The notes under the pieces: generated by a model | What the model was told of the DNA's origin: nothing | The model's input: only the letters and a program-made list of their open reading frames with translations | Database searches by the model: none | Position numbers and translations under genes: made by a program | Source: a virus | Length of the DNA stretch: 64,000 nt | Strand: one strand, 5' to 3' | IMG/VR virus record: IMGVR_UViG_3300045988_060821 | Span: 80,819 to 144,818 of that record | Shown here: positions 2,458-48,763 of the stretch, one piece after another | Position numbering within the stretch: position 1 is the first letter of the stretch | Layout of the letters: the number at the start of each line of letters is the position of its first letter

Positions 2458-2460
2458 TAA

Positions 2461-2485
2461 GGAGAGCTTTTTAGCTCTCCTTATT
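2461..2485 (+). terminator. Rho-independent terminator (GGAGAGCT-TTTT-AGCTCTCC hairpin plus T-rich tail).
   Basis: Perfect 8-bp inverted repeat immediately after the TAATAA stop. Confidence 0.7.
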
Positions 2486-2507
2486 AAAGGAGTGAAAGGA
2501 GATAAAC

Positions 2508-6398: not shown

Positions 6399-6411
6399 GG
6401 AGGGATAAATA

Positions 6412-7243: not shown

Positions 7244-7261
7244 GAGCTAAAGGAGATAACC

Positions 7262-7623
7262 ATGTTAAATAAAGATATTGTCACGATGTACCGTGGGTTA
7301 ACAAGCTTGGCTTCCGATCTGGAAACCAAGCTTCCCGCGAAGGTATCATTTGCTATTGTTAGGAATATTAAGCTTTTAACTCCTATTGTTGAAGATATTG
7401 ATTTTGCTCGTCAATCAGTTGCAGCAACTTATGGAGTAGAAGTCGATGGTGGATACAGTATTCCTGAATAGCAAATAGATACAGTTAATTAGGAGTTAAC
7501 TGCGATTGCGGAAACAGAAGTTGATGTTCCTATTGTTAAAGTTAAAATGTCAGATATTGAGAACTTGAATATCTCTGTTGGTATCGCAGAAGCTCTTGAG
7601 TTTATGATAGAGGAAGAGGTTTA
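7262..7623 (+). CDS. Small structural-module protein (about 120 aa, 2 recoded TAG).
   Basis: SD box AAAGGAGATAACC then ATG at 7262. TAA at 7621-7623 sits inside a terminator hairpin. Confidence 0.45.
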
Positions 7624-7647
7624 AGTCTCTTCCTCTTTTCTTTTTGC
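7609..7647 (+). terminator. Rho-independent terminator (GAGGAAGAGG / CTCTTCCTC stem, T-run).
   Basis: 10-bp inverted repeat followed by TTTTCTTTTTGC. Confidence 0.65.
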
Positions 7648-7721
7648 TTGGACGGATTTAATTATCTTAACCAAAGCAATTTTTATAATATATAGAGTTA
7701 GAGAAAAAGGAGGCGCGGAAT

Positions 7722-10463: not shown

Positions 10464-10468
10464 TATTC

Positions 10469-12372: not shown

Positions 12373-12386
12373 AGGAGGAGAGGGCG

Positions 12387-12965
12387 ATGTCTGCTATTGG
12401 ACAAATCTACTATCGTGTAGTAGATACAAGTAGCACTGGCGATGGAAAACATTATATTTCCTCTGGAATTGATATTTACAATGATATTGTAAGTGCTTCT
12501 AGTGCCAAATAGTTTACCAAAGTTGGTATTCAGGCTCCACCGGGAGCGCAAGTTGTCATGAATGCTAGCAAGACTATCATGATCGGCCGCACTGGTATTT
12601 ATGAGCTTGATGAAGATATTGTTATTACAAGTATGAAATTCGTTCGTCCTACAGTTTATATTAAAGACGAGGAAGAATCAGAAAGTAAGAAACAAGAAGG
12701 CGAGAAGATTATCAAGGAGGCTAAGGCGGCTCTTGAGGCCGCTATCGCTGCATTGGGAGAAGAGCCTACTGATCCAACTTCTGATGCTTATAAAACCTAT
12801 TGGAATGGATATAATGAAGCCAATGAGACTTACATTGCTGCATTTCAAAAAGGTAGTGCAATTTTAAATCAAGGTCTAAATGGAGTTTACAAGGAAGATA
12901 AAACTGTTGTTGGCGAGTTAGATAACGTGATTGTAGACTTTATTTACGATCCACTCTAGGGATAA
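12387..12965 (+). CDS. Hypothetical virion protein (about 192 aa, 2 TAG).
   Basis: SD box TAAGGAGGAG then ATG at 12387. Piece 12558-12959 is in frame. TAA at 12963-12965. Confidence 0.5.
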
Positions 12966-12977
12966 GGAGGTATAGAC

Positions 12978-14897
12978 ATGCAATCTTTCTACGGAGGTCC
13001 TGCTGGACAGAGCTTCGAGATTAAAAAGATATTTGAGTCTTATTACGGTCCTGATGGAGCGCAAGTTGACTTAGATAAAGGATGGGCATCTCCTATCTCT
13101 GTGGGCGAATTTGTTATGGTGTCTTATGGCTTGCCATCTGACGCTACATACATGACTCGCATGAACTATGACTTAAATGCGGGTGACAAGAAAAACTTAA
13201 ACTCTACTTTATGGTAGAAAGTATATGACGAGTCTGCGGGAGAGGGAAGTGGTCTTAGCTATAAGCTCATTTCTTCTTGCACCGGTAATACTCCAAAGAT
13301 TAGTATTACAAAACCCGCAATCGTGCTTCATGCGAATGAACAGCCAGACATTGAAACTGATTTATCTAACCAAGATATGCCAGTTATTCAATTTAAGTTG
13401 CCAAGAGCATAGGTATTATCAATGCCGCAAGAAGCAACTGTTCTAAATGCGGATGAAAAGCCAAGTATTGTATATAACGATGATGATATTGACCACCCAA
13501 CCGTGCATTTTAATATTCCGCAGTCTCAAGTAATTGATTAGGTTGCAGTTGATGTTATTGGCGTTGGGGAAGAACCAAAGGTCAGACTTGACTTAACTGA
13601 TATTAACCGACCTGTACTTAAATTCCAACTACCTGTAGCTCAGGAATTTTTAGACAGTAACATTCTTCACGAAGTATTAAATGCTAATGCTGAGCCAACT
13701 GTAAGTTTTGGTTATAGCGAAGAAGATACTCTTCACAAGCATCCTATCTTGACATTCTCTCTGCCTCGTAGCCAAGTAATGGCTGCACCAGAGACGATTA
13801 CTAGAGCGCCAGACTTTGAGCCTAAAGTAACTGATGTTGGAACGGTCAATGAACCTAAATTACATTTTGAATTGCCTCGTGCGGTTAAGTTCTATTATGG
13901 TAGCTTGTTAGGGCAAAGAACCAATAAAACATATACTCTTACCGATCCACTTTTCGCCAATTATGGAGTTGGAGATTACTATATCAATGAATCCACTGGT
14001 TTTATTTATAAAGTAACTAGTAAGACAGATGATACTACTTGTGTCTTTGAATATCAAGCAAGCATTCAGCAACCGCTACCAGTAGTCAACGCTAGTGCTA
14101 TCGCTCCTTATATCGAAGGTGACGAAGGATTTAAACCTGCGGTTCCGCAAGTTAAAAGGACACTAACAAACGCGGAAGGTACCGAATGGCAACTTGAATT
14201 TAAGCTCCCATAGGCTCCGAAGCCCGCAGTTTCTTCTACTTTTGTTGGTTCGGCAGAGCAAGGATCTGTCACTTCTGCTATTACTAGCGAAGACACAGTA
14301 ACCTTTACTTTCAAGATTCCAACTGGTAGTAAGCTATTCGCGGGTCTTGAGATTACAGCCGATGGAGCAACTACCACTATTGATGGCGCGAGAATCGGAG
14401 ATATTTATCTCAATAGCGAGACCGGTGTTTTGTATACTTTAACCGCTAATGGATGGAAAGCTAGTGAGAAGAGTATTAAAGGTCCTGTTGGGGATGCTCT
14501 TAATATTGAAGCTGAATATCATTTAACTGAAACTGCGGAGTTCGCTGCTAGTTTAGCAAATGGTGTCACCTATATTCAGGAACACTATTCTGGTACTATT
14601 GATTCTCATAAAATCTTTGCTATTACTTGGGCTTTGCTTGATAATGGCGGAGATGTATCTTACTGGTATTATAAAACTAATGCTGGTGAGTGGGATAGAG
14701 CGCAATTAACTGGTGGCATTTCTAGTTTAATTGAGCAGTCTTACAAGGAAAATGTTGACAATAAGACTTACTCAGTCAATTATATTAACTCGCTAATTGG
14801 CGGCGATGGAGATACATCAAAAACGGCTTATTCTAAAGATTAGGTATAGAGCCTTGTTTCATGGGGATCTTTCCAAGACCTTATAGAAAAGCCTTGA
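12978..14897 (+). CDS. Fibre-like protein (about 640 aa) with tandem ~30-aa repeats ending in (K/H)F.LP..Q motifs. Recoded TAGs; TGA stop.
   Basis: SD box TAAGGAGG then ATG at 12978. Pieces 13749-14213 and 14430-14843 are in frame. The repeats are ...VIQFKLPRA, HFNIPQSQV, LKFQLPVAQ, LTFSLPRSQ, LHFELPRAV and LEFKLP. Confidence 0.55.
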
Positions 14898-14916
14898 TTA
14901 AAGGGAGGATTTAATA

Positions 14917-15699
14917 ATGGCTTTATTTAAGATTTATAAAGGTGAGGAAGAGCTTCTCACTCAAATTCCCATGCATGAGGGATATGCCTATTTCTGCGAA
15001 GATACAGGCAATCTATTTATTGACATTTCTAATAGTACTGGTGGACGCGTTCAAGTTAACGCATATGCAGCTTCTATTTTGAAGAAAGATACCAAAGAAA
15101 TCGACATTGATGATATCTTTCTTACTAATATGACCGCTACTGTTGCGCAAGGTGGTACTGGACAGAAAACCTTGACAGTTAATGCTTTACTACTCGGTAA
15201 TGGTACTGATGCAGTTAAGATGGTATCTATCGAGAAAGGTGCTATTGTAACTGGAGATTCTACTGATGGCGTCTCTGGTTTGTTAGGTACTGGAGCATTA
15301 TTTGCAGATGTTTCTGGCGTTCCAAAGTTCGGTACTCTACCTATTAAAGCTGGTGGTACCGGTGCTACAACTGCGGCGGCCGCAAGAACTAACCTAGATG
15401 TATATAGTAAGAGCGAGACAGATAATAAGATGGATGAAGTAACTACCGTCTCTTATACTGCTACTCTTGCTCAAGCTAACTGGGTACATTCTGGAGATAC
15501 TTATACCTATTCTTATAGCAATACTAATTTGAAGTGTGGCAAGAATGGTAATGTACCTCCAATCATTTCTTGGATTAGTAATCATGATGATTATAATAAG
15601 ATTGATGACGCACAGGCAACTGTTGGCTCTGGCATTACCTTCACTGCTAGTAAGGCTATTGAGGGAGATATTGAAATCGTCATTATCGACGTGAAATAA
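14917..15699 (+). CDS. Tail fibre protein (260 aa) with the LPIKAGGTGATTAAAARTNL motif common in phage tail fibres.
   Basis: SD box AAAGGGAGG, intact ORF with no TAG, and the Gly/Thr/Ala-rich collagen-like fibre motif. Confidence 0.7.
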   Translation: MALFKIYKGEEELLTQIPMHEGYAYFCEDTGNLFIDISNSTGGRVQVNAYAASILKKDTKEIDIDDIFLTNMTATVAQGGTGQKTLTVNALLLGNGTDAVKMVSIEKGAIVTGDSTDGVSGLLGTGALFADVSGVPKFGTLPIKAGGTGATTAAAARTNLDVYSKSETDNKMDEVTTVSYTATLAQANWVHSGDTYTYSYSNTNLKCGKNGNVPPIISWISNHDDYNKIDDAQATVGSGITFTASKAIEGDIEIVIIDVK

Positions 15700-16210: not shown

Positions 16211-16850
16211 GCTCTACCTGTTCTAGCTCCTCTAAAGAAGCTGCTCCATAAATAGAGATTTTATACTACTGCATTTGACGATACATTGGATATACAGCCG
16301 CAGAGATGGACATAGACAATGCAACAAGATTTTCTAATGTCCAAGGCTAGCACTCTTCGTGTCGAGCGTGCCATTCCAGAATTGGAGATTCAATACCTGC
16401 CTGAACGGCGATCTGATATTGACTTAAGTTAAGACTAATCTCAGATTGATCCTCCATTGTAACTCCATATTCTTTTCCATCTGTCCATGTTAATGGATGA
16501 GAAGCAAGATACTCTGCGAAAAGTAGCTTGTTCTTCTCTTGCTTAAGCTCTTTAGCTTCATCTAAACTATAACGATAAACAAAACTCTGAGTTTCATTGT
16601 CGAACTTATATAGATTAGGTGTAACATTGGATGGAATTTCTTCAACTTCGATAACGCGAACTGCGTTAGGAGAGTTGATTGTATCAGCTTGAATTAAGAC
16701 ATAATGAGTGTCGCAATCAGAGCCAATAACCCCAGTGCCTTCTTCTTCTGAACAGGCAACGACAATACCATTGGAAGATTGCAGTTTAATGTAACGAAGA
16801 TTGTCGAGAATATCAACTACAATATTCCCACGATTTAATAATACATACAT
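16194..16850 (-). CDS. Hypothetical protein (about 218 aa, 3 recoded TAG). Its ATG overlaps the RT stop (TAATG).
   Basis: ORF 16347-16850 continues through TAG at 16347-16349 to TAA at 16194-16196. It is translationally coupled to the RT. Confidence 0.45.
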
Positions 16851-18115
16851 TACTTTATTTCAACTCCTTTGAATAGTGAACGAAAATAATTATCCATATC
16901 TTGGATAATATAGAAGCTAGATCCTTTAGCGATATGTGCTCTCCAACCTTGATAAGATTTCTGAATTTCTTCAGTAGGAATTTTACCTTGTTGCCATAAA
17001 GCAGCCATTTTACGCAATTTTCTGCGCTAATGAACAATCTTTTTCTTAAAAGGTATCTAGATTACATGATTTGTAGTAGTTAAATAGAAATTCCATTTAA
17101 GATACTTAAATGGAGTGCCATGAACCTTATCTTTAGGTGCGATAGGGGTAATGCGCGAGATAGTGGTTTTCTTCTAGTTAAGAGTAAGACCTATATCTTT
17201 TAATTTCTTCTCTATCTTAGCTTTACATTCTGCTAAGTATTTGCTATCGTTACATAGAAGATAAGAATCATCCATGTAGCGTCCATAATACTTAATATGT
17301 AATTCTTCTTTAATGAAATGGTCAACTTCGTTCAAAGCTAGCAATGCAAATAACTGTGATGTCTAACTGCCTAGTCCAAGACTTTTAGCTTCACACTCAT
17401 AATATTGATGATGCGGCCGGAAAGACTGGATATCCGCAGGTATATATTTTCTACCTTTAGCAATATAATACTATTTGCCCGGAATTGGATGCTTATCTTT
17501 TGTTAGCTTAAAAGAAAATGTATCAATTAGGTATGAGCATAATTCATAGACTTGAGGATCTTTAATAACACGCTTAGCGATTTCTTTAAGAGCCTCATGG
17601 TCGATAGAATCAAAGTATTTACGAATATCAATTCGTAAAGCAAAGAAATCGTTTCCTAATCCGTACTCTCTATGAGCCATCTGTAAATGTTTCTTTGCTC
17701 TTGCTAAAGCAAAATCTATACCTCTATTTTTAAGCGTTGCATAGTTATCATAAATAAACTTAGGAGTTAATTCTGGTAGTAAGCTCTATTCACATAGGGC
17801 ATTTTGTACCAGTCTGTCGTTGATATGACACGCTCTTATATCTCGTGGCTTACCTCGTTCAATGATTGAGAAACAACTAAACACAAGCTGCTTGTATTCA
17901 CAAGCTCGCAAATCGGCTTCTGTTTGTAAGATTGTTTCAATTCTATTCTCTTCAAAATTGATTGTACTATCTTTCCATCGAACATTTCGACAAACTCGAT
18001 AAGAGGAATCATATAATGCGTCAAAACTACAAAAACGCTCGAAAGATGTCTACTACTAACTCAACTTCTTTCTCCTTATCATACAGTAATAGCGGTCACT
18101 TCGCGAGTTCCGCAT
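16850..18115 (-). CDS. Diversity-generating-retroelement reverse transcriptase (about 420 aa), read through about 9 recoded TAG codons.
   Basis: The frame of ORF 17471-17680 carries the RT motif-2 sequence FDSIDH (RIDIRKYFDSIDHEAL). Extending that frame through TAG codons gives YYGRYMDDSYLL (YxDD catalytic motif) and GLTLNQKKTTI downstream. The gene ends at TAA 16850-16852. Confidence 0.85.
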
Positions 18116-18368
18116 CTGTAATCGTATTTATTTATCCGTCGCAAGGACGAAATAGTCAAGTTCTCCTTAGATGAAAAGGCATCTACCTATAATATACTAT
18201 TTAATAATATGTTCTATTCCTTCTCCTTCTTAGTCCACAAAGGTGAACCAATGCATCCAGAATAAACCATAATTAGATGGACAATAATATATTCTGGGGT
18301 ACTATTCTAGGTGTTGCTCGTCTGCGCTGCTTCGCAGCTTGACTTGCAACGTGATAGCTCCATCTAAT

Positions 18369-18468
18369 CCGGCGCGAGGCCATTGCTGTTGTTGTAGTTG
18401 TTGTTGTTCGCGTTCCCGTTGTTGTTGACATTGCACACGTTGTTCGAGTTGTTGTAGTTGCGCGAGCG
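18369..18468 (-). repeat. DGR template repeat (TR). The coding-strand sequence is AAC-rich (translating to RSRNYNNSNNVCNVNNNGNANNNNYNNSNGLAP).
   Basis: 100-bp near-repeat of 19097-19196 at offset +728. There are 22 mismatches; 21 of them fall at TR adenines on the minus (coding) strand. Confidence 0.85.
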
Positions 18469-18500
18469 AAAAATACAGAACTTGACATCTTGTAAAATCA

Positions 18501-18995
18501 TTACCGACCTCTTCTATAACTCTTTGGCTTCTAGTAGGAATGCTCGTAGATTAAATAATCTCGATTAACTCTATCCTATAAAGTTTCCTTCATAGCTTTT
18601 GTTAAACGAGCAAGATGCTCAAAAGAGCGTCGTTTCTTCTGATTGGTCTATGCGTATTCGAAGATACAGAGATCGATTTGACGAAAGATACTATCACAAT
18701 AAGCGATAGCCTAATTCCAATATTTCTTTCGTGCAATTAGAGTTTCCTAACTATTCAAGTAGATTTCACTAGCTTGATAGCAGGCGGCATGTATGCCTTT
18801 TCCGCATTTAATAATATCTAACCCGAAGGCTTGGAAAGGTTGTCCCTCTCCAAGCAATCCGGGCTTTTTAACTTGTTTTCCAGATTCGTCAAACTCTCTA
18901 GGACGAGTTAAGACTAAAATGTAATTTACCAGTTCGCGTGATTTCTGGAGACATTCACGCTTGGATTTATGTCGATCTTTTGTTTTTACAGACAA
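18501..18995 (-). CDS. Candidate Avd (accessory variability determinant)-like small basic protein (about 165 aa, 5 recoded TAG), located between VR and TR.
   Basis: ORF 18747-18995 extends through TAGs to TAA at 18501-18503. It is basic with K/R-rich termini, and its position matches the canonical DGR order. Homology cannot be verified by eye. Confidence 0.4.
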
Positions 18996-19076
18996 AATTA
19001 ACGCCTTCCTTTCTCATTATTTATATGAGAAAACTGGCTAACATTTTAATCTATGCTGCCCCACCTTTGAAAGTTT

Positions 19077-20852
19077 TTAATTACCAATGACGAAAGCCGG
19101 CGCGAGGCCAAAGCTGTCGTTGTAGCGGCCGTAGTACGCGTTCCCGCTGCCGGTGATAAGGCACACGGCGTTCGAGTAGCTGCAGTAGCGCGAGCGCTCC
19201 CATGGATAACCGTAGCTACTTGTGGATGTATCTCCTAAATACATGATGCGTGTAGCATTACTGGTATAATAACTATACGCAAAATTCTTACCCTAAGTAC
19301 ATTCTGCTTTTGATGTAGTAGAATTGGCAATAGAAAGAGGAGAATAAATATCAAGACCAAATTCTCTTTCAGAAAGCAAGAATACTGTTTCGTCATTATA
19401 AGTTACATTTTGATTTCTGTCACCATAATTGGGGCAAGTACCTTTTTTAATTGTCTTAATGGCTGCTTTACCGGGGAAGGCATTATAGTAATTTTGACAC
19501 AGGCTTCTAGCTGTAGAACCAATCCAAGCTGCATTACTACCAAAAGTAGTATATTGACTTAAACAGTTTTTAGTCTGGAATGTAACTGTATTATTAGCAT
19601 CTTGATCTACGCCAATAACTCTAATTAAGTGAGTAGTAGTACCTAAAACTGCGCTTGAAAGCGTTACAGATTTAGTTGTACCAAGAATGGCACCACCGCT
19701 ACTAGTCTTAATAGATGTACCAGTATGAGAAGCAAGATAGTTCTTTAGTCCCGTAAACCATGCTGCATCAACAGTACCACCATCAGCGCCCCAAGACCAA
19801 TATTCTGCGCTAACGGTAATTGTCTTATTGGCAGGAGCAGTATGGTTAGTACCTGCGGCGACACTAATAGTAATAGTTTTTGCGGAAACCGCAGTAGAAC
19901 CATTACCTTTAATGGTAAGAGTATTGCCATTAAGAGATAGTGTTAAACCAGAAATACTAGTAGGACTGTAGCTAATAGCGCCATCACCGGTGCGAGTAAT
20001 AGTAACAGCTACACCGGAACTATAGTTATTACCATTAATAGCTACTGTTGTTGGGTTTACATTCAAACTACCTGTTGCTTTGTTGATTGTCCAGTTGACA
20101 TTAATTGCGGTGGTCGTTCCGTCCGTCCAGCGATAATTGCTTCCTGGTGTAAAGGTAGCAATATAAGTGCCAGCATTAGTTGCAGATGTTGTGCCACCGA
20201 TAGTCATGTAACTAGCATTGTAGTTATTCCAATAACTGGTGCTACTAACAGATTGCGCGCTTCCAGTATATGTAAGATTACTCTTCCACGTAGGTTTAGC
20301 TACAGACTTACGATTGACTGTGACATTAAAAGTCGCAGTTTGAGTAATTCCATTTTCTGTGTAGCTAACTGTAACTACTTGATTTCCAACAGTTGAGAAA
20401 GTTGTTGGAGAACAAGAGTAACCAGTTACAGTTTTAGTTTGAGAATCGGAATAACTAGCTGTTACTACCATTCCCGTGGTAACAAGAGTATCTCCATACT
20501 CATAAGTCAACTTATTGGGTTTAGTAGTTACAGCAATCGTGGAGAGCCTATGCGTGACTGTGACTGCTAGAGTCGTAGTGCAAGTTTCTCCGCCCTCAGA
20601 GTAGGTGATGGTTACGGAAGTAGTACCATCAGTTAAGACGCTAGGGGATACAGAATATCCACTAACTTCTGCGGTTGCTAGAACCGCTTGCCCAGTACCA
20701 TAAGATGCGGTAACGACCATACCGGCGCTATTGAAGCTGTCGCCCGCAAGATAGCTGGTCTTAGTAGGCTTAGTGGTGACTTCGATCTTCATAAGAACGA
20801 TGCCGCTTCCTCCACCTTTTCCGCCTTGCTCAGCTAAAATACACTTAGGCAA
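19077..20852 (-). CDS. DGR target protein (about 591 aa): Ig-like (BIG2-type) repeats followed by a C-terminal C-type-lectin/FGE-like variable domain. One recoded TAG at 19293-19295.
   Basis: Strong SD box GAAGGAGG then TTG at 20852 (alternative ATG at 20792). ORF 19293-20996 reads through the TAG to TAA at 19077-19079. The VR occupies the last ~35 codons. It carries repeated VTASY...TVTV Ig-like modules. Confidence 0.8.
19097..19196 (-). repeat. DGR variable repeat (VR) at the 3' end of the target gene. It includes an invariant GC-rich 14-bp 3' element (TGGCCTCGCGCCGG on the coding strand; IMH-like).
   Basis: See the TR entry. The VR codons encode RSRYCSYSNAVCLITGSGNAYYGRYNDSFGLAP. Confidence 0.85.
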
Positions 20853-22795: not shown

Positions 22796-22817
22796 ATTAT
22801 ATAATGAGGTGATAAAG

Positions 22818-23423
<606 letters not shown>

Positions 23424-23472: not shown

Positions 23473-23856
23473 ATGCCAGAAATTGTGATTCAGATTATCC
23501 AGGTATGTGTTATTCCTTTGCTCGGTATTTTAACTAAATATCTCGTTGACTACTTGACTGCTAAGCGCAATGAGATTAACTCTAAGACCGATAATGAGAC
23601 TGCTCAGAAGTACACTAATATGATTTATCAGACTGTTGTTGATTGCGTTATTGCAACCAATCAAACCTATGTAGATAGCTTGAAGAAATCTGGAAGCTTC
23701 GATGAAGCAGCTCAGAAGGAAGCATTTAACCGCACAATGAACGCTATTATGACTATTCTAAGTGACGATGCTAAGGAATATATTACCGAGGCTACAGGTG
23801 ACTTAAATACTTATCTCACTCAGTTAATTGAGGCTGAAGTCAATAAGCGCAAATAA
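23473..23856 (+). CDS. Small membrane protein with one N-terminal TM helix and an amphipathic tail (possible holin or anti-holin-like).
   Basis: 127 aa. Hydrophobic segment IVIQIIQVCVIPLLGILTKYLV. Followed by a terminator. Confidence 0.35.
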   Translation: MPEIVIQIIQVCVIPLLGILTKYLVDYLTAKRNEINSKTDNETAQKYTNMIYQTVVDCVIATNQTYVDSLKKSGSFDEAAQKEAFNRTMNAIMTILSDDAKEYITEATGDLNTYLTQLIEAEVNKRK

Positions 23857-23865
23857 CAAGAAAAA

Positions 23866-23897
23866 GGGAGCCTATTAGGCTCCCTATATTTTTTTTC
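23866..23897 (+). terminator. Rho-independent terminator (AGGGAGCCTA-TTA-GGCTCCCT plus T8).
   Basis: Perfect stem followed by TTTTTTTT. Confidence 0.8.
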
Positions 23898-23908
23898 AAA
23901 AAAATTGG

Positions 23909-23945
23909 CAAAATTTTTGGCAAAAATGTAAAATCGTCCATAGAC
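23909..23945 (+). promoter_or_regulatory. Candidate sigma-A-type promoter: TTGGCA - 18 nt - TGnTAAAAT (extended -10), containing two direct TTGGCAAAA repeats.
   Basis: Read by eye. It lies upstream of the SD-equipped gene at 24001. Confidence 0.35.
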
Positions 23946-24000: not shown

Positions 24001-24399
24001 TTGGCAACTAATTATCCATACTATCCACAGCAACCTATGTATCCAAGACCAGGTATTCAATATGTGGATCAGACCTAGCCGCAAATGGGTATTAAAGGCC
24101 GGCCTGTATCTTCTATTGAAGAGGCCCGTGCCATTAGCATTGATTTCGATGGCTCTGTATTTTATTTTCCTGATTTAGCAAATAGACGTATTTATACTAA
24201 GCAAATAAACATGGATGGTACAGCCAGTCTTAATGTTTATGAGCTAAAGAATGAGCCAGTCGTCAGCTCTCCTCAGTATGTTACTAGAGAAGAGTTTGAG
24301 ACTACATTAGCACAATTAAAACAAGCTATGTTAGGAAAGGAGCCAGAATCTCAGTCCGCACCGGCATAGCCGCAGTAGACTGAGAAATTTAAGTTTTAA
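24001..24399 (+). CDS. Hypothetical protein with a Pro/Tyr/Gln-rich N-terminus (about 132 aa, 3 TAG).
   Basis: SD box AGGAGGTAAAAATT then TTG at 24001. Piece 24085-24369 is in frame. TAA at 24397-24399. Confidence 0.4.
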
Positions 24400-24412
24400 G
24401 GAGACATGAATT

Positions 24413-24648
24413 ATGAACCCAATGCAACTTATCCAAATGCTTAGGAGTGGACAGAATCCTTAGCAACTCGCTATGAATCTGCTAGAAAGCTAGATGGGTG
24501 AGACCCCAATGGGTCAAAACCTTTTAAACCTAGCCAAGAATGGTCGATCCGCAGATATTGAGCAAATTGCTCGTAACTTAGCTAAACAATAGGGAATAGA
24601 TTTCGACAAAGAATTTGCCGCCTTTAAAGAGATGCTTGGCCTTTAATC
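24413..24648 (+). CDS. Small hypothetical protein (about 78 aa, 3 TAG).
   Basis: SD box TAAGGAGAC...ATG at 24413; TAA at 24646-24648. Confidence 0.35.
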
Positions 24649-24673
24649 ATCTTATTAAAGGAGGAACATTTTT

Positions 24674-25534
24674 ATGTTCAATAATTCTAATGGCTATAGT
24701 CTAGCTGATATTGCGGCTGCTACTGGTGGTAACAACCGCAATGATGGTATGTGGGACAACGGTGCGTGGTGGATTATTATCCTCTTCCTCTTCTGTTTCA
24801 ACGGTGGTATGTGGGGTAATGGTTTCGGTCGCGGCATGGGCGGCCAAGGCGCTGGATCTCCTGCGTTCCAGGGAACTGCAACTCGTGAGGAAATCGCTTA
24901 TGGTTTCGATATGAACGGTCTCCAGAGTGGTATTCGTGGTGTACAGCAGGGTCTCTGTGACGGACTCTATGCTATGAATACTGGAATGTTAAATGGCTTT
25001 GCTGGTGTTAATAATGCAGTTTGCTCTCTCGGCTATCAAACCGCTCAGCTTGCTAACGGTTTAACTTCTGACATTGTTGCTAACCGCTTTGCCGCACAAC
25101 AGGGCGTATGCCAGGTTGAAAATGCTATCAATCAGGCTCGTTATGATAATACTATTGGTCAGAATAGTATTGCTCGTGAGATTTCTGATTGCTGCTGCGA
25201 AAATGGTCGCGCTATGGAACGTGGTTTTGCTGATATTAACTATAATATGGCAACCAACACTTGCGCTATCCAGACCTCTATGGCAAATCACACCCGTGAT
25301 ATTATCGACAGTCAGAACGCTGGCACTCGTGCTATCCTTGATTATCTCTGCCAGGAGAAAATCTCTGATCTCCAGAGTGAGAACCAGGCTCTCCGCCTTG
25401 CTGCATCTCAGCAGGCTCAGAACAATTATCTGGTCAGCCAGCTCGGCACTAAGGCACCTGTTCCCGCTTATGTGGTTGCAAACCCATACTGCAACTGCGG
25501 GACCGCAGCTTATGGTTGCGGGTTAACTGCCTAA
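24674..25534 (+). CDS. Gly/Asn/Cys-rich membrane-anchored protein (286 aa, no TAG, higher GC).
   Basis: SD box AAAGGAGGAACA; intact ORF; one TM (WWIIILFLFCF); 13 Cys. Confidence 0.5.
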   Translation: MFNNSNGYSLADIAAATGGNNRNDGMWDNGAWWIIILFLFCFNGGMWGNGFGRGMGGQGAGSPAFQGTATREEIAYGFDMNGLQSGIRGVQQGLCDGLYAMNTGMLNGFAGVNNAVCSLGYQTAQLANGLTSDIVANRFAAQQGVCQVENAINQARYDNTIGQNSIAREISDCCCENGRAMERGFADINYNMATNTCAIQTSMANHTRDIIDSQNAGTRAILDYLCQEKISDLQSENQALRLAASQQAQNNYLVSQLGTKAPVPAYVVANPYCNCGTAAYGCGLTA

Positions 25535-25546
25535 ATTAACCTATAA

Positions 25547-25575
25547 GGGGAGAGTAATCTCCCCTTATATTAAAA
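25547..25575 (+). terminator. Rho-independent terminator (AAGGGGAGA-GTAATC-TCCCCTT).
   Basis: Stem-loop after TAA 25535-25537. Confidence 0.7.
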
Positions 25576-25593
25576 ACAAGGAGGATTTGTATT

Positions 25594-26016
25594 ATGGAAA
25601 TTACCGCTAATGCTGTGCAAACAGTCGCGGCTAATCAAGATGTTTTATTCACAAATATTGCTGTCGCAGGCAACTCTTCTACCGTTCATCGTAGCGGTAG
25701 CGGTCAAGTAACTTTAAGAGGTTTGACTAATTGTCAGTGTCGTGCGCGTTTTCGCGTGACATTTGGAAGTAATATTGCGGTTCCCGCAGATGGTACTGCT
25801 GGACCAATTTCATTAGCTATTGCTATTGATGGTGAACCTATCAATACCACTACCATGATTTATACGCCAACCGCGGTTAGCACTTATGGCAATATTTTTG
25901 GTGCTATTTTTATTGATATCCCACGTGGATGCTGTGGAAAAGTAAGCGTAAGAAATATTTCTACTATTCCAGTAAGCGTTCAAAACGCTAATCTAATTGT
26001 TGAAAGGGTGGCTTAA
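25594..26016 (+). CDS. BclA C-terminal-domain-like (C1q/TNF-fold-like) protein (140 aa, no TAG).
   Basis: SD box ACAAGGAGGA. The C-terminus ...VQNANLIVERVA resembles the ...SASIIIEKVA terminus of the exosporium protein BclA C-terminal domain. An FN(T/V) segment sits near the N-terminus of the domain. Confidence 0.4.
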   Translation: MEITANAVQTVAANQDVLFTNIAVAGNSSTVHRSGSGQVTLRGLTNCQCRARFRVTFGSNIAVPADGTAGPISLAIAIDGEPINTTTMIYTPTAVSTYGNIFGAIFIDIPRGCCGKVSVRNISTIPVSVQNANLIVERVA

Positions 26017-26019
26017 TTT

Positions 26020-26583
26020 ATGGAACGACTAAAGCATATGGAAGAAGTCTTGATGGGCTGTGTTCAGGCACAGTTAAGTCATCTTGATACGGTAGATACT
26101 GAGGAATTAGGTCAGGCTATTGATATGATTAAAGACCTTGAGCAGGCTAAATATTACTGCTCTATTATCAAGGCAATGGAAGAAGCCGAAGAGGACGAAA
26201 CTAAAGAAAAGAGCCATCATCACCATAGAGATATGGATAAAGTATATGGAAGAATGTATTATGAAGGTCCAGATGGCCGTTATCCATGGAAAAAGCGCGA
26301 TCGTGATGAAGATTATCCTTATTATCCTGAACGTGGACGCGAGATTGATATTCGCGATTCTCGCGAAGGCCGCAGTCCAGTAACTCGTCGTATGTATATG
26401 GAGTCTAAACAACTTCATAAAGATAAGACAGAAAAGGTTAAGGAATTAGAGAAGTATATGCAAGAACTCTCTGAGGACATCGTAGAAATGATTGATGGAG
26501 CTTCTCCAGAAGAGCGTCAAGTTCTAGAGAAGAAAATGACTAGCCTGACTAATAAAATTGCGCAGTTAAATCTCAATGCTTAA
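26020..26583 (+). CDS. Highly charged His/Tyr/Arg-rich low-complexity protein (187 aa, no TAG).
   Basis: Intact ORF with HHHH, YPYYPERGREIDIRDSREGR and a coiled-coil C-terminus. Confidence 0.4.
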   Translation: MERLKHMEEVLMGCVQAQLSHLDTVDTEELGQAIDMIKDLEQAKYYCSIIKAMEEAEEDETKEKSHHHHRDMDKVYGRMYYEGPDGRYPWKKRDRDEDYPYYPERGREIDIRDSREGRSPVTRRMYMESKQLHKDKTEKVKELEKYMQELSEDIVEMIDGASPEERQVLEKKMTSLTNKIAQLNLNA

Positions 26584-26839
26584 TATTAACGGAGTAAGTT
26601 GGAGGATATTGCTAGTACCTCCAACTTCTTCTACTCTTGCTAGGAGCGATGGGTCATTAGCTTCTGGTGTTTGTGATAATGATACTAAATGTATCTATAT
26701 CAATGAGAATCTTAATTCTTCTTTAATGAAGAGAGTGTTATGTCACGAAATAACTCATGCTGCTATGTTCAGCTATGAAACTGATTTAACCGTTGAACAA
26801 GAGGAGCTATTAGCGGATCTAATAGCTACTTATGGATAG
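26576..26839 (+). CDS. Small HExxH zinc-metallopeptidase-like protein (87 aa; ImmA/IrrE or DUF955-like).
   Basis: VLCHEITHAAMF motif; overlaps the upstream gene by 8 nt. Confidence 0.4.
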   Translation: MLNINGVSWRILLVPPTSSTLARSDGSLASGVCDNDTKCIYINENLNSSLMKRVLCHEITHAAMFSYETDLTVEQEELLADLIATYG

Positions 26840-26880
26840 GAAATAATTTCTAAAACCAATGATATATTTCAACGATTAAA

Positions 26881-26925
26881 AGCAAATAAAGGGGACTTGT
26901 CAAGTTAAAGACAAGTCCCCTTTAT
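26881..26925. terminator. Bidirectional terminator (AAAGGGGACTTGTC-AAGTTAAA-GACAAGTCCCCTTT) between the convergent gene blocks.
   Basis: 14-bp perfect inverted repeat with T-runs on both strands. Confidence 0.8.
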
Positions 26926-27118
26926 TTTGTTATTCGAGTTTAATTGGTAGTTCCAATGCTAATTCGTAATATTCTTTAGCTTGACCATTTCCGCCTAATC
27001 CAGAGTATATTCGATAAAACTCACTTAATTGATCATATTGCTCTTGTGTCATATAACCCTATTTAATATAAGCTTTACAAAGCTAAACCAAACGGAATTT
27101 ATAAGACGAAATGATTAG

Positions 27119-27361
27119 CTACATATGACTTTTCTCAATATCTTTAGTTTCCATGATATATTTTCGGAGTTCTTCGATTTCTTTCTGAATTGGTTCAATG
27201 CGGGAGTCTATAGTTTTTTCTAGTTCAGTATCTTTGCTTTCTTCAAGTAGCTTTTTATAATTCTTTAACTGGCCATGTAAGTATTTACAAAAAGCTAAGG
27301 CTCCCGCAGATACTAAGCCAAAAAAAATCTCAACTAAATGTTCAGCAATAAAAGTAAACAT
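27119..27361 (-). CDS. Small protein with an N-terminal TM helix and a coiled-coil (80 aa).
   Basis: SD box GGAAGGAGG then ATG (internal Met of ORF 27119-27388). Confidence 0.35.
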   Translation of the reverse strand: MFTFIAEHLVEIFFGLVSAGALAFCKYLHGQLKNYKKLLEESKDTELEKTIDSRIEPIQKEIEELRKYIMETKDIEKSHM

Positions 27362-27437
27362 AAAATCCTCCTTCCTTAAACCTCTCAAAAAATTTTAAGA
27401 GTTAAGAAAGGAGGATTATTTTATTTAGACCGCATCC

Positions 27438-27917
27438 TTACCAAGCGCATTTATTCTTCTTGATATGATGAGTTCCAATGCATACAGCATCCGCAATATC
27501 CTAGATAACATGGATACCATAATTCTATTCTACATAGAGTTGAGCATTCTTTTTCTATTCTGCTCTTGTTCGACCTTTAATACCTAAAGTAGATTTCCAA
27601 GACGAGGCGAGGACTGTTGAATGAGGAATCTGGATTTCTTGCAGTAATTCTGAAACAACTCCATAAACCTCTGCCAAGACCTTAAAGGTCTAAACATTAT
27701 TAGCCACATTGTTCTGTTGCTAAATATCTTCAAAGATTACTTCGTCGATATTATAATCTGTAACTAAAGTCTAAATACCCTATCGTAACTAAACTAGTCT
27801 AATATCGGTATTTGGATCATCTAAAGAAATCTTGCCGTAGGACTTTAACTTTCCATCTTCAAAGATAGCCCATCCCGTAACCTTCGAGGCTTGGTCAAGG
27901 GCTAACAAGCGACTCAT
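27438..27917 (-). CDS. RuvC-like Holliday-junction resolvase (159 aa) with 7 recoded TAG codons.
   Basis: N-terminal MSRLLALDQASKVTGWAIFEDG... and C-terminal ...IADAVCIGTHH (RuvC motifs). It is invisible in the ORF track because of the TAG density. Its ATG overlaps the dUTPase stop (TAATG). Confidence 0.7.
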
Positions 27918-28480
27918 TACTTACTTGTAGAACCGAATCCACCTACGCGCTCGCCTGTCGCGGCATCATCATCGGTTACTCCATACGTATGAATAATTCC
28001 TTGTCCGATCTTATCTCCACGCTTAAGTTGAATAGCAAAAGGAGAAAGGTTGATAATCTGGAAGAAGATTTCGCCCTCATTGTCGGGATTATCGCAATAG
28101 TCGGCGTCGATAATACCAATACTGTTGCCGATAATCAGCCAATGTTTAAGAGGAGTAGAACTGCGGGCGCTCAGTTCGAGATACTGACCAGGCTCAAGAT
28201 GACACTTCATACCAGTAGATACCAGAGGAATCTTGGCTTTAAGTTCCTTAGTAAGAGCTGCCATTTCATCAAGAGAAAGTGGATCAATGAAACCATAGAA
28301 GTCTTCGTGGCGTTCTTTCTCAAATAAGTCATCCTGAATCTTGGTTCTTAGAAAATCATATGGAGGAATCACAATATCCTCTGCGACTACAAAATCATAA
28401 CCCGCGGAATTGGCGGTTGCACGAGTCGGTAGAGGTAGATCAACATCCGCGAAGCGAGAAACTTTCTCAAATTTAACCAT
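27917..28480 (-). CDS. dut: dUTPase / dCTP-deaminase-family protein (about 187 aa).
   Basis: GIIDADYCDNPDNEGEI... and the Gly-rich C-terminal motif GERVGGFGSTSK. SD box GGAGGA then ATG at 28480. Confidence 0.75.
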   Translation of the reverse strand: MVKFEKVSRFADVDLPLPTRATANSAGYDFVVAEDIVIPPYDFLRTKIQDDLFEKERHEDFYGFIDPLSLDEMAALTKELKAKIPLVSTGMKCHLEPGQYLELSARSSTPLKHWLIIGNSIGIIDADYCDNPDNEGEIFFQIINLSPFAIQLKRGDKIGQGIIHTYGVTDDDAATGERVGGFGSTSK

Positions 28481-28724
28481 TATCTGTATCCTCCATATTG
28501 ATAGGCATAACCCCTTCAGGGTCTTTCTCATTGTCGATAGTAATAGTAGCAGTCACAAGCTGATACTCTTCAACAATCTCGCCCTTTGCCTTAATATATT
28601 TAGTAACGTACTTAAAGGAAGTTAGCTCGCCAATACAGTTCTTGTCAAGCCACTTCCGCAGACGAAGAGCATCTTCGACAGTAGGCACGCGATACACATT
28701 CGTTGTTTTCAAAGTATACATCAT
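28473..28724 (-). CDS. Small hypothetical protein (83 aa).
   Basis: Intact ORF; its stop overlaps the dUTPase start. Confidence 0.35.
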   Translation of the reverse strand: MMYTLKTTNVYRVPTVEDALRLRKWLDKNCIGELTSFKYVTKYIKAKGEIVEEYQLVTATITIDNEKDPEGVMPINMEDTDNG

Positions 28725-48451: not shown

Positions 48452-48763
48452 TCAGTTATCGTCTCCCACAGTATTTGTGTATCCTACAATGTTGAATTGA
48501 TTGAGCCAGCTATCTAGTTCATCAATAACAGCAATACATTTCATACCTCTAGCTTTTGTTAGAAAATATCCATAGCTAATAAATCCTAAATTTTGCGGTA
48601 GATTACGCTCTTTTGTTAACTCTAAGAACTTTTTAACCATCAGTTGAGGATGTTGAGTAACAAAGAGTACCATCTTATCAGGATACTTATGTGCTAAATC
48701 ATTTGCGTAGTACATTAAGCTAGTTGTCTTACCTGCACCACGACTTGCAATTACCTTAAACAT
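48452..48763 (-). CDS. Small P-loop NTPase/kinase-like protein (103 aa).
   Basis: Walker A SRGAGKTT. SD box GGAGG then ATG. TGA abuts the thyA-like ATG. Confidence 0.4.
   Translation of the reverse strand: MFKVIASRGAGKTTSLMYYANDLAHKYPDKMVLFVTQHPQLMVKKFLELTKERNLPQNLGFISYGYFLTKARGMKCIAVIDELDSWLNQFNIVGYTNTVGDDN

What the first reader, a model, noticed from the sequence alone, without database searches (positions are those of the whole stretch)
24674..26840. TAG-free moron island encoding spore-surface-like proteins
Between two terminators lie four SD-equipped genes with no TAG at all. They are a Gly/Asn/Cys-rich membrane-anchored protein (13 Cys), a protein whose C-terminus (...VQNANLIVERVA) resembles the BclA exosporium C-terminal C1q/TNF-like domain, a His/Tyr/Arg-rich low-complexity protein reminiscent of spore-coat proteins (HHHH, YPYYPER), and a small HExxH peptidase-like protein. 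This is an apparently host-derived cluster of spore or exosporium-flavoured proteins. It may indicate interaction with sporulating hosts, for example phage carriage on or in spores or decoration of the virion.
Basis: inference. Interest (0 to 1): 0.6.

Follow-up and report, generated by a model that had tools for sequence, protein, structure and literature searches.

The report
Conserved gut-phage operon with BclA-like protein
The four genes are part of a six-gene operon of unknown function that is shared by thousands of gut phages, including phages of hosts that never make spores; one protein really does have the BclA/C1q/TNF fold, but nothing links the cluster to spores, and its lack of TAG codons is mostly codon bias and small numbers.

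Summary
The window is a phage that reads TAG as glutamine. Late genes carry many in-frame TAGs, early genes almost none, and no gene needs TAG as a stop.

The four ORFs exist, but the "island" is mis-bounded:
- Gene D reads through its apparent TAG stop and ends at 26908.
- No terminator precedes A.
- The conserved unit is U1-U2-A-B-C-D (24037-26908). U1 and U2 each hold three in-frame TAGs.

In recoded relatives the A, B and C orthologues do carry in-frame TAGs. Only A is consistently TAG-poor, through a family-wide codon bias.

What holds up:
- D is a minimal HExxH peptidase (M78/DUF6782).

What fails:
- B has no collagen stalk or targeting motif and is always free-standing.
- C matches no spore-coat family.
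- The module is collinear across its roughly 150-kb phage clade. Its core (U1-A-B) recurs in small phages, including a Butyrivibrio phage.
- A-like genes occur in crAss-like, Bacteroides, C. perfringens and archaeal-associated viruses.

Best reading: a mobile phage accessory operon encoding a hydrophobically anchored coiled-coil stalk (A) plus a TNF-like head (B), acting at the cell envelope. This mechanism is inferred, not shown.

The parts
23473..23856 (+). U3, a holin. It lies immediately upstream of the operon and is included as context.
   Evidence: phrog_13712 holin, E 4.5e-34. Weak Pfam Phage_holin_6_1 hit. Collinear with the module in clade relatives.
23865..23885 (.). Intrinsic-terminator-like hairpin after the holin. 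This is the real upstream boundary of the transcription unit.
   Evidence: 9-bp stem with 6 GC pairs, followed by a T-run on both strands.
23905..23934 (+). Sigma-70-like promoter candidate upstream of U1.
   Evidence: TTGGCA-18-TAAAAT, 10 of 12 matches. This is a consensus match only. The number of such sites in the region is not above shuffled expectation.
24037..24399 (+). U1: a 120-aa protein with a Gln/Pro/Tyr-rich N-terminus, a small beta-rich domain and a C-terminal helix. It has 3 in-frame TAGs and is a core member of the module.
   Evidence: Reading frame with TAG as sense. phrog_21718, unknown function. Found by iterated HMM in 51 of 58 loci, always upstream of A.
24413..24646 (+). 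U2: a 77-aa protein rich in Gln, Met and Asn, probably helical (composition only, not modelled), with 3 in-frame TAGs.
   Evidence: Homologues in 35 loci, including the C. perfringens phage XP41-N3. A U2-like motif appears at the N-terminus of the Bacteroides and crAss A-like proteins (by eye; weak support).
24674..25534 (+). A: a 286-aa protein. It has a conserved N-terminal motif, a short aromatic hydrophobic helix flanked by Gly-rich linkers, two very long helices, a DCCCE motif and a Pro/Cys-rich tail. It has no TAG and a strong codon bias.
   Evidence: phrog_16490 E 3.4e-41. At least 7473 homologues, none named. Conserved columns. Model pLDDT 56, with helices at 32-42, 71-136 and 141-258. 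12 Cys. GC 48% and CAG 18: CAA 3. The bias is conserved in relatives.
25542..25569 (+). GC-rich hairpin between A and B, a candidate attenuator or mRNA 3' stabiliser.
   Evidence: 12-bp stem, delta-G -20.8 kcal/mol. A comparable hairpin or terminator lies between A and B in 18 of 45 distinct loci. This copy has no T-run on the + strand.
25594..26016 (+). B: a free-standing 140-aa TNF/C1q/BclA-C-type jelly-roll protein with invariant Cys113-Cys114.
26020..26583 (+). C: a 187-aa protein whose termini are conserved across relatives and whose centre is a variable His/Tyr/Arg/Asp-rich low-complexity stretch.
   Evidence: 4218 homologues, none named and none with a Pfam domain. Only weak coiled-coil-type hits in Pfam and NCBIfam. 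The Dulem 33 counterpart matches with hhalign probability 71%.
26576..26908 (+). D: a 110-aa minimal HExxH metallopeptidase. Its start overlaps C's stop. The in-frame TAG at 26837-26839 is read as sense.
   Evidence: Peptidase_M78 and DUF6782 above their Pfam cut-offs. phrog_1233. Homologues align through the TAG, with invariant E89 and I90.
26884..26927 (.). Strong bidirectional intrinsic terminator that closes the late + strand unit and the convergent - strand unit. D's TAA stop lies in its loop.
   Evidence: 18-bp stem with 7 GC pairs and T-runs on both strands. Sequence.

Best explanation
The four ORFs are the distal two-thirds of a six-gene phage operon, U1-U2-A-B-C-D (24037-26908). It lies at the end of the late + strand block of a phage that reads TAG as Gln. 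The operon is ancestral to its roughly 150-kb phage clade. Its core, U1-(U2)-A-B, moves horizontally among many gut phages. It is not host-derived and not spore-related.

Shown:
- A is a protein with a short N-terminal hydrophobic helix and about 190 residues of long alpha-helix carrying conserved Cys motifs. Its codon usage is biased throughout the family towards CAG and away from TAG.
- B is a free-standing TNF/C1q/BclA-C-type jelly-roll protein.
- D is a minimal M78-type zinc peptidase.
- A hairpin or terminator after A recurs across loci.

Inferred:
- A is made in excess and forms an oligomeric coiled-coil stalk anchored by its hydrophobic segment in the cytoplasmic membrane of the infected cell.
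- B, probably a trimer, docks on A's Pro/Cys-rich C-terminal tail. This would give a two-polypeptide version of the stalk-plus-TNF-head design seen in BclA, C1q and many phage fibres.
- The assembly acts at the cell envelope during phage development. The most plausible roles are exclusion or receptor masking, or an accessory step at lysis.
- U1, U2, C and D are assembly or processing partners.

The absence of TAG in A-C is explained by A's codon bias plus the small number of Gln codons in B and C (13).
For: Recoding and gene D:
- Late genes carry 2-14 in-frame TAGs and early genes almost none. No gene in the window needs a TAG stop.
- In relatives 140 of 142 in-alignment stops are TAG, mostly opposite Gln.
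- D reads through its TAG.

Unit boundaries:
- Terminators lie at 23865-85 and 26884-927, and none lies before A.

Conservation:
- The order holin-U1-U2-A-B-C-D, followed by convergent RuvC, dUTPase, NrdDG and PolIII-alpha genes, recurs in about 25 loci, many on 148-176-kb contigs.
- U1, A and B co-occur in essentially all 58 loci.
- Orthologues of A, B and C in recoded relatives carry in-frame TAGs: 4.3%, 17% and 16% of Gln positions. They are therefore translated under suppression.

A's codon bias:
- GC3 of A exceeds that of the other module genes in 48 of 53 loci.
- Gln codons in A are CAG 601: CAA 343: TAG 19, against 516: 881: 211 in the other module genes.
- An A-B hairpin or terminator occurs in 18 of 45 loci.

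Folds and families:
- B's fold.
- A's architecture and conserved Cys.
- D's family.

Host range:
- Butyrivibrio phage Ceridwen has U1, A and B.
- C. perfringens phage XP41-N3 has U1, U2 and A.
- A-like genes occur in a Bacteroides uniformis phage, in crAss-like phages and in Methanomassiliicoccales-assigned viruses.

Genome position:
- In small phages the module lies outside the structural block, after the lysis genes or next to lysogeny or recombination genes.
Against: - No experiment or multimer model shows that A and B interact or that B is a trimer.
- A's model has low confidence (pLDDT 56).
- A's apolar run is short (median 14 residues) and lacks flanking positive charges, so membrane insertion and topology are uncertain.
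- B has no signal peptide. If A's stalk is extracytoplasmic, the two would not meet before lysis.
- The envelope function is inferred from architecture and gene position only. PADLOC, NCBIfam and Pfam give no functional hit for U1, U2, A, B or C.
- In this clade the operon directly follows the tail-fibre genes, and in crAss-like phages it lies near the capsid genes. Both positions would also fit a virion role.
- "High expression" of A is inferred from codon bias alone.
Confidence: 0.45

Rival explanations
1. Virion fibre or decoration. A is a trimeric coiled-coil shaft and B its TNF-like tip. Both are incorporated into the particle as a head fibre, whisker or side fibre, and U1, U2, C and D are assembly chaperones or a maturation protease.
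For: - In this clade the operon follows the tail-fibre genes in the late block.
- In cr116_1 it lies near the capsid genes.
- Depositors annotated A-like genes as "viral fiber" or "spike".
- The genes are late-type and use TAG in relatives.
- The patchy distribution is typical of accessory decoration proteins.
Against: - A has a conserved hydrophobic, aromatic-rich segment flanked by Gly-rich linkers, which is unusual for a soluble fibre.
- In small phages the module lies beyond the lysis cassette or among lysogeny and recombination genes, outside the ordered structural block.
- The "spike" label rests on a non-significant match to the coronavirus HR1 helix (E 0.014).
- No PHROG structural annotation exists for A, B or U1.
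Confidence: 0.2
2. Lysis accessory. A is a membrane-active protein resembling a fusion protein or a spanin. It has a hydrophobic peptide, HR1-like long helices and intermolecular Cys. It acts after the holin to finish envelope disruption, and B modulates or targets it.
For: - The operon starts directly after a holin in this clade.
- It lies 1-4 kb downstream of the lysis genes in Ceridwen, Dulem 33, XP41-N3 and cr116_1.
- A has an Rz-like layout: an N-terminal hydrophobic helix, two long helices and conserved Cys.
- Its helices weakly resemble a class I fusion heptad repeat.
Against: - Monoderm hosts need no spanin.
- None of the translated neighbouring proteins begins with a lipoprotein signal, so there is no o-spanin partner (read by eye).
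- The endolysin of this phage lies 30 kb away on the other strand.
- In the Bacteroides phage, Dulem 39 and vir215 the module is not next to lysis genes.
- The region downstream of the lysis cassette is also the usual insertion point for accessory cargo, so the position does not discriminate.
Confidence: 0.15
3. Standard-code expression. A-C lack TAG because they must be translated before, or without, the phage's suppressor. Examples would be expression from a prophage or early in infection, as a true moron-type unit.
For: - 0 of 34 Gln-type codons are TAG, against 24% in the neighbouring late genes.
- TAG-free genes in this window are otherwise mostly early genes.
- Borges et al. (10.1101/2021.08.26.457843) showed that genes needed under the standard code, such as integrases, avoid recoded stops.
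- Terminator-flanked, highly expressed genes next to integrases, as in the small phages, are classic morons.
Against: - A-C sit in one unit with U1 and U2 upstream (3 TAGs each) and D downstream (1 TAG). There is no terminator or clear promoter between U2 and A.
- Orthologues of A, B and C in 16 recoded relatives carry 10, 16 and 23 in-frame TAGs.
- B plus C alone have only 13 Gln codons, so P is about 0.03-0.09.
- A's TAG avoidance accompanies a general shift to preferred codons that is also seen in standard-code relatives.
Confidence: 0.12
4. This is a host-derived cluster of spore-surface or exosporium-type proteins that links the phage to sporulating hosts, through carriage on spores or spore-like decoration.
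For: - One B-family member gives a marginal Pfam BclA_C hit (E 0.0096).
- A is Cys-rich and C is Tyr/Arg/His-rich, compositions also seen in coat proteins.
- Many carrier contigs were binned with Clostridia.
Against: - B has no collagen-like stalk and no N-terminal targeting motif. The window protein has no BclA_C sequence signature.
- EDA, C1q and TNF score as well as BclA.
- No spore-coat family hit exists for A or C.
- The module or its A component occurs in phages of Butyrivibrio, Bacteroides, crAss-like phage hosts and archaea.
- All genomic occurrences are in phage context, and none was found in an isolate chromosome.
Confidence: 0.03

Closest known systems
BclA C-terminal domain, F-BclA tip fibrillum domain and ExsFA (Bacillus exosporium and endospore-appendage proteins; C1q/TNF superfold)
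   Same: - The same ten-strand jelly-roll of about 135-140 residues.
- Like ExsFA, B is a free-standing domain.
   Different: - No collagen-like GXX stalk and no N-terminal exosporium-targeting region.
- No significant sequence match to Pfam BclA_C or to PDB sequences.
- Encoded in phages, many of them infecting non-sporulating hosts.
- Always paired with the unrelated protein A.
TNF-like or C1q-like receptor-binding tips of phage and virus fibres (cyanophage A-1(L) and A4 tail fibres, TM4 gp23 receptor-binding domain, PRD1 P5, Sf6 needle knob)
   Same: - Many BFVD phage proteins carry the fold at fibre C-termini.
   Different: - In those proteins the TNF-like domain is the covalent C-terminus of a long fibre.
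- B is a separate 140-aa polypeptide in all 150 best representatives.
- Its gene partner A has a hydrophobic anchor-like segment.
Free-standing "BclA protein" or uncharacterised 130-145-aa proteins of uncultured gut Caudoviricetes (BFVD A0A8S5U2A1, A0A8S5S925, A0A8S5SGY1); PHROG 20016 and PHROG 16490
   Same: - Same size, same fold and same habitat.
- Foldseek E 7e-11 to 2e-5, TM 0.75-0.83.
- A and B fall in PHROGs 16490 and 20016.
   Different: These are database entries with no described function, so the family is catalogued but uncharacterised.
ImmA/IrrE (Peptidase_M78) and related minimal HExxH peptidases (DUF6782, SprT-like, PolyVal-type)
   Same: D has the HExxH motif and scores above the Pfam cut-offs for Peptidase_M78 and DUF6782.
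   Different: - D is only 110 aa.
- It has no adjacent XRE/HTH repressor partner.
- It is translationally coupled to C, the low-complexity protein.
Rz-type i-spanins and class I viral fusion heptad repeats
   Same: - A has an N-terminal hydrophobic helix, two long helices, conserved Cys and frequent proximity to lysis genes.
- Its helices weakly resemble coronavirus HR1.
   Different: - No o-spanin lipoprotein partner.
- Most carriers appear to infect monoderm Clostridia.
- The HR1 match is not significant (E 0.014).
- A is twice the length of Rz.
TAG-to-Gln (code 15) recoded gut phages (Borges et al., 10.1101/2021.08.26.457843; Peters et al., PMC9523058)
   Same: - In-frame TAGs are concentrated in structural and lysis genes and avoided in replication genes.
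- Standard-code and recoded genomes coexist within one clade.
   Different: No suppressor tRNA lies within this 64-kb window. It may be encoded elsewhere in the roughly 145-kb genome.

Membership tests
BclA / BclA_C (exosporium collagen-like glycoprotein) | C-terminal TNF/C1q-like jelly-roll fold | tested here: met
   [not shown]
BclA / BclA_C (exosporium collagen-like glycoprotein) | Sequence signature of Pfam PF18573 (BclA_C) at or above its threshold | tested here: not met
   B has no Pfam hit at E <= 1. The profile of 33 homologues finds no BclA chain in PDB sequences. Only one of about 7 divergent B-family members reaches E 0.0096.
BclA / BclA_C (exosporium collagen-like glycoprotein) | Collagen-like GXX repeat stalk N-terminal to the globular domain | tested here: not met
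   B is 140 aa and starts directly with strand 1. The 150 best of 854 family representatives are 77-196 aa and none has a stalk.
BclA / BclA_C (exosporium collagen-like glycoprotein) | N-terminal exosporium-targeting motif, and occurrence in spore-forming hosts under sporulation control | tested here: not met
   B has no N-terminal extension. Carriers include phages of Butyrivibrio fibrisolvens. A-like genes occur in phages of Bacteroides uniformis and in crAss-like phages. Sporulation-specific regulation cannot be tested here.
C1q/TNF structural superfamily | Ten-strand jelly-roll topology shared with C1q, TNF and EDA | tested here: met
   [not shown]
C1q/TNF structural superfamily | Homotrimeric assembly about the long axis of the jelly-roll | not testable with these tools
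   No multimer prediction is available. The invariant C-terminal strand NANLI.ERVA fits an interface but does not prove one.
Moron (autonomous accessory transcription unit in a phage genome, Hendrix-type definition) | Own promoter and terminator flanking the unit | tested here: inconclusive
Terminators lie at 23865-85 and 26884-927, and a promoter-like site lies at 23905-34. That site is a consensus match no more frequent than in shuffles.
Moron (autonomous accessory transcription unit in a phage genome, Hendrix-type definition) | Present in some but absent from otherwise closely related genomes, and of atypical composition indicating recent acquisition | tested here: not met
   The module is collinear in about 25 clade relatives. 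Only A is compositionally atypical, and that bias is conserved in 48 of 53 loci whose GC ranges from 24 to 58%. Across phage taxa, however, the core module is patchy.
Peptidase_M78 / ImmA-IrrE-like metallopeptidase (gene D) | HExxH zinc-binding motif and a Pfam score above the gathering cut-off | tested here: met
   HEITH at residues 57-61. PF06114 scores 29.2 bits (cut-off 22) and PF20573 scores 30.3 bits (cut-off 27). H57, E58 and H61 are invariant in homologues.
Peptidase_M78 / ImmA-IrrE-like metallopeptidase (gene D) | Adjacent XRE/HTH repressor substrate (ImmR-type pairing) | tested here: not met
   No HTH family was found in U1, U2, A, B, C or the downstream gene Dn1 (26930-27361, - strand).
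Two-component spanin (Rz/Rz1), considered for A | N-terminally anchored coiled-coil protein plus an outer-membrane lipoprotein partner, in a phage of a diderm host | tested here: not met
   A's layout is Rz-like. No neighbouring ORF has a lipoprotein signal (by eye), and most carriers are binned with monoderm Clostridia.
Spore-coat proteins, considered for C | Match to any curated spore-coat or exosporium family | tested here: not met
   Pfam and NCBIfam give only weak coiled-coil-type hits below their cut-offs. None of the 120 listed best of 4218 homologues is named or has a Pfam domain.
Genetic code 15 (TAG to Gln) phage | In-frame TAGs in conserved genes, aligned with Gln in homologues, and no gene requiring TAG as a stop | tested here: met
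   (TAG lies opposite Gln in most cases).
Genetic code 15 (TAG to Gln) phage | Phage-encoded suppressor tRNA(CUA) | tested here: not met
   ARAGORN finds no tRNA in the 64-kb window. The rest of the roughly 145-kb genome is not available here.

The most novel reading that the evidence does not exclude
A and B could form a previously unrecognised two-polypeptide "membrane spike" of tailed phages. It would combine a hydrophobic peptide, an HR1-like coiled-coil stalk and a TNF/C1q-like head, working like a class I fusion or spanin-type machine, or like a receptor-masking fibre, on the cytoplasmic membrane. That membrane is the one envelope layer shared by the monoderm, diderm and archaeal hosts among whose viruses the A family has spread.
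Probability: 0.1. Interest if true: 0.8.

Novelty: new variant of a known kind. Interest (0 to 1): 0.4.

Why it matters
- The spore story does not hold, so the finding as written should not be followed up as a link between phages and spores.
- What remains is a very abundant gene module with no function assigned in any library or paper searched here. There are at least 7473 A-family, 6241 B-family and 4218 C-family protein clusters. It crosses phage families and host phyla in the gut.
- It pairs a BclA/C1q/TNF-fold protein with a Cys-bearing coiled-coil protein that carries a hydrophobic segment. Three cultured phage-host pairs carry it or its A component, so its role can be tested directly.
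- The case is also a practical warning. In TAG-recoded phages, standard-code ORF calls mis-place gene ends, as with D, and hide upstream operon members, as with U1 and U2. "Stop-codon-free islands" must be judged against orthologues.

Tried and rejected
- Pfam, NCBIfam and PADLOC scans of A, B, C, U1 and U2 gave no meaningful family. A Pfam scan of 50 divergent module members gave only the D peptidase families, one marginal BclA_C hit and one DUF7841 hit.
- Profile searches of the A and B families against PDB sequences gave nothing for B. For A they gave only a non-significant coronavirus HR1 match, which explains the deposited "spike glycoprotein" labels.
- Foldseek of the low-confidence A model against the PDB gave no match.
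- The afdb50 fold library was unavailable.
- I tried to show that the genes downstream of A-like genes in the Bacteroides, crAss-like and C. perfringens phages are B, C and D homologues. hhalign and hmmsearch scores were insignificant, except for the C-like protein of Dulem 33 (probability 71%). That wider equivalence rests on gene order, size, Cys motifs and HExxH only.
- The phrog_473 "virion structural protein" hit turned out to be a short coiled-coil match in a Bacteroides-phage neighbour, not in A or B.
- I searched for a protein fusing a B-like head to a stalk. None appeared among the 150 best representatives.
- Literature searches for this module, for Ceridwen proteomics and for phage BclA/C1q proteins found nothing relevant.
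- The phAss-1 paper on recoded gut phages was not pursued. The module region has no close DNA match among deposited phage genomes.
- The genome-contig scan returned only MAG contigs, so host assignment from binning is unreliable.

Full report
**1. What the window is**

With TAG treated as a sense codon, the fragmented + strand ORFs at 100-15000 fuse into long tail and tail-fibre genes carrying 2-14 in-frame TAGs each. The - strand replication genes at 28000-56000 (PolIII-alpha, NrdD, topoisomerase subunits and others) are almost TAG-free. Every gene then ends in TAA or TGA. In 16 recoded relatives, 140 of 142 stop codons inside protein alignments are TAG, mostly opposite Gln. This is the code-15 pattern described for gut phages, in which recoded stops concentrate in late and lysis genes (10.1101/2021.08.26.457843; PMC9523058). 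No tRNA lies in the window.

**2. Checking the observation**

The four ORFs are real. A, B and C have 21, 5 and 8 Gln-type codons and no TAG. Several details are wrong.

- D's "stop" at 26837-26839 is a sense TAG. Homologues from standard-code relatives and from Dulem virus 39 align through it, and the next residues (E89, I90 and the EII..TN..F motif) are conserved. D is therefore 110 aa and ends at TAA 26908, inside the loop of the terminator.
- No terminator lies upstream of A. The nearest is at 23865-23885, after the holin, and a promoter-like site follows at 23905-23934. Two further genes lie between that site and A: U1 (24037-24399) and U2 (24413-24646). Each has three in-frame TAGs.
- A 12-bp GC-rich hairpin without a T-run lies between A and B (25542-25569). 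The strong bidirectional terminator lies at 26884-26927.
- A has 12 Cys, not 13, and there are 20 off-frame TAG trinucleotides in the interval.

**3. Is the absence of TAG meaningful?**

At the rate of this window's + strand late genes (69 TAG of 282 Gln-type codons), 0 of 34 is unlikely (P about 7e-5, my arithmetic). The property is not conserved, however.

- In recoded relatives the orthologues carry in-frame TAGs at 4.3% (A), 17% (B) and 16% (C) of Gln positions. The figures are 26% for U1, 26% for U2 and 28% for D.
- With those rates the joint probability of the observed zeros is about 0.04.
- Standard-code members of the same clade have no TAG in any module gene.
- Only A is systematically TAG-poor, and this accompanies a general codon shift. 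A's GC3 exceeds that of the other module genes in 48 of 53 loci, whose GC ranges from 24 to 58%. Its Gln codons are CAG 601: CAA 343: TAG 19, against 516: 881: 211 for the other module genes.
- A bias kept across such different genomes points to selection, most simply for efficient translation of an abundant product, and not to recent transfer from a host.
- A strong hairpin or intrinsic terminator recurs between A and B in 18 of 45 distinct loci, including essentially all the small phages. This fits A being made in excess over B.

**4. Extent and distribution of the module**

tblastn and iterated HMM searches over 58 fetched loci give the following picture.

- The order holin-U1-U2-A-B-C-D, followed by convergent genes for a small membrane protein, RuvC, dUTPase, NrdDG, guanylate kinase and PolIII-alpha, recurs in about 25 loci. 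Many come from 148-176-kb contigs. The cluster is thus an ancestral, syntenic part of this phage clade.
- U1, A and B co-occur in nearly all loci, including 35-45-kb phages.
- In the cultured Butyrivibrio fibrisolvens phage Ceridwen, the module follows the endolysin region and precedes the XRE/antirepressor genes.
- In Dulem virus 33 it lies between the PGRP-type lysin and the integrase.
- In Dulem virus 39 it lies between replication genes and Cro/CI.
- C. perfringens phage XP41-N3 has U1, U2 and A between an antirepressor and the Gam/Erf genes.
- A-like genes alone are detectable in the cultured Bacteroides uniformis phage C3_41T2LP, in at least 14 crAss-like genomes (annotated "spike protein/glycoprotein" or "outer capsid protein/viral fiber") and in viruses assigned to Methanomassiliicoccales.
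- In those distant phages the downstream genes resemble B, C and D in size, Cys motifs, charged low-complexity sequence and HExxH. Profile comparisons are not significant, so I treat that as suggestive only.
- All 41 hits in species-representative genomes are MAG contigs with phage synteny. None was found in an isolate chromosome.

**5. The proteins**

- *A (phrog_16490).* A has an invariant N-terminal motif (MFN..YSLADIAA), an aromatic hydrophobic stretch (WWIIILFLF) between Gly-rich linkers, conserved Cys including DCCCE, a Gln/Ala/Asn-rich helical region and a Pro/Cys-rich tail. Its model has low confidence (pLDDT 56) but shows one short helix and two very long ones. The apolar run is short and lacks flanking positive charges, so membrane anchoring is plausible but unproven. 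The deposited "spike" label traces to a non-significant match to coronavirus HR1. Foldseek finds nothing.
- *C.* C has conserved termini around a variable His/Tyr/Arg/Asp-rich centre and matches no curated family.
- *D.* D passes the Pfam cut-offs for Peptidase_M78 and DUF6782 and has invariant H-E-x-x-H.
- *Context genes.* U3 is a holin. The endolysin lies at 57026-58357 on the other strand.

**6. Interpretation**

The data exclude a host-derived, spore-specific island. They support a mobile phage accessory operon whose constant core is U1-A-B.

The architecture suggests a two-polypeptide version of the stalk-plus-TNF-head design of BclA, C1q and phage fibres. A would be an abundant protein with a hydrophobic segment and a long coiled-coil-like stalk. 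B would be a separately encoded TNF-like head made in lower amounts, with co-conserved Cys motifs in A's tail and in B.

In small phages the operon lies outside the ordered structural block, next to lysis, lysogeny or recombination genes. Given that position and A's anchor-like segment, I favour an assembly on the infected cell's membrane acting at the envelope. Its role could be exclusion or receptor masking, or a lysis accessory step. A virion fibre is the main rival. All of this mechanism is inference. No tool here could test A-B binding, trimerisation, topology or timing.

**7. Verdict**

The fold and the peptidase hold, while the moron, host-origin, spore and TAG-free readings do not.
- The underlying module is catalogued but uncharacterised. 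It is a new variant of the known TNF-like fibre-head theme.
- Interest is moderate, because the module is very widespread and can be tested in three cultured phage-host systems.

Noticed in passing
window 16850-20792 (- strand): RT 16850-18115, TR 18366-18468, VR 19094-19196: A complete diversity-generating retroelement. It comprises a reverse-transcriptase gene, a 103-nt template repeat and a variable repeat at the 3' end of a 571-aa target gene (19077-20792). The two repeats differ only at template adenines.
   Followed up: partly
window about 22817-23423 (+): A small serine recombinase of the resolvase/invertase type, with a GTG start and at least 5 in-frame TAGs. It lies between the tail-fibre-like genes and the holin and is conserved in some relatives (U4 in L017, L019 and L020). 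It might invert or resolve a nearby segment.
   Followed up: no
window 23473-23856 (+) and 56703-58357 (-): The holin (phrog_13712) and the endolysin (443 aa, 5 in-frame TAGs) are about 30 kb apart on opposite strands. A small membrane protein with 3 TAGs lies next to the endolysin. The holin itself has no TAG.
   Followed up: partly
window 48763-49680 (-): A 305-aa gene has 13 in-frame TAGs while sitting among TAG-free early replication genes. Its C-terminus looks like a GIY-YIG nuclease domain and its N-terminus like a membrane or coiled-coil segment. This is an exception to the split between TAG-free early genes and TAG-rich late genes.
   Followed up: no
window 60667-62163 (-), 45703-46659 (-), 49730-49993 (-): Three genes share A's unusual composition: GC 0.47-0.51 and strong CAG preference (for example CAG 32 : CAA 1). 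The first is a flotillin/Band_7-type protein, which also occurs in the related loci L045 and L046. They may be the phage's most highly expressed genes.
   Followed up: partly
window 26930-27917 (-): The first two genes of the convergent - strand block carry many in-frame TAGs: Dn1 has 3 and a RuvC-like resolvase has 8. The next gene, a dUTPase-like gene at 27917-28531, has none. Dn1 (phrog_4105/4257, function unknown) is syntenic with the module in many relatives.
   Followed up: partly
loci L012, L013, L018, L020, L024, L043, L045-L047 versus L006-L011, L014-L017, L019, L021, L026, L029: Within this one syntenic phage clade some genomes have no in-frame TAG in any module gene and so use the standard code. 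Others have many. The code change is therefore recent and patchy, as Borges et al. reported for other clades.
   Followed up: partly
L056:4626-5543 and L057:4656-5552: In the Bacteroides phage and the crAss-like phage, the A-like protein has an extra N-terminal segment (...QNKG[VI]DPNL...) that resembles the C-terminal part of U2. This may be a domain fusion linking U2 to A. Statistical support is weak.
   Followed up: partly
L001:6512-7306 (Butyrivibrio phage Ceridwen): A gene that looks like an HNH-type homing endonuclease (my reading of the translated sequence, not scanned) is inserted between the B homologue and a C-like Tyr/Arg/Ser-rich protein (L001:7322-7708). The C-like protein was not recognised by the first tblastn.
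   Followed up: no
L058:5472-5849 (C. perfringens phage XP41-N3): The gene after the A-like gene encodes a 125-aa beta-rich protein with a Cys-rich N-terminus (MTCNRRCNCCNRR...). It takes B's position but has no detectable similarity to B. It may be a non-homologous replacement of the head protein.
   Followed up: partly
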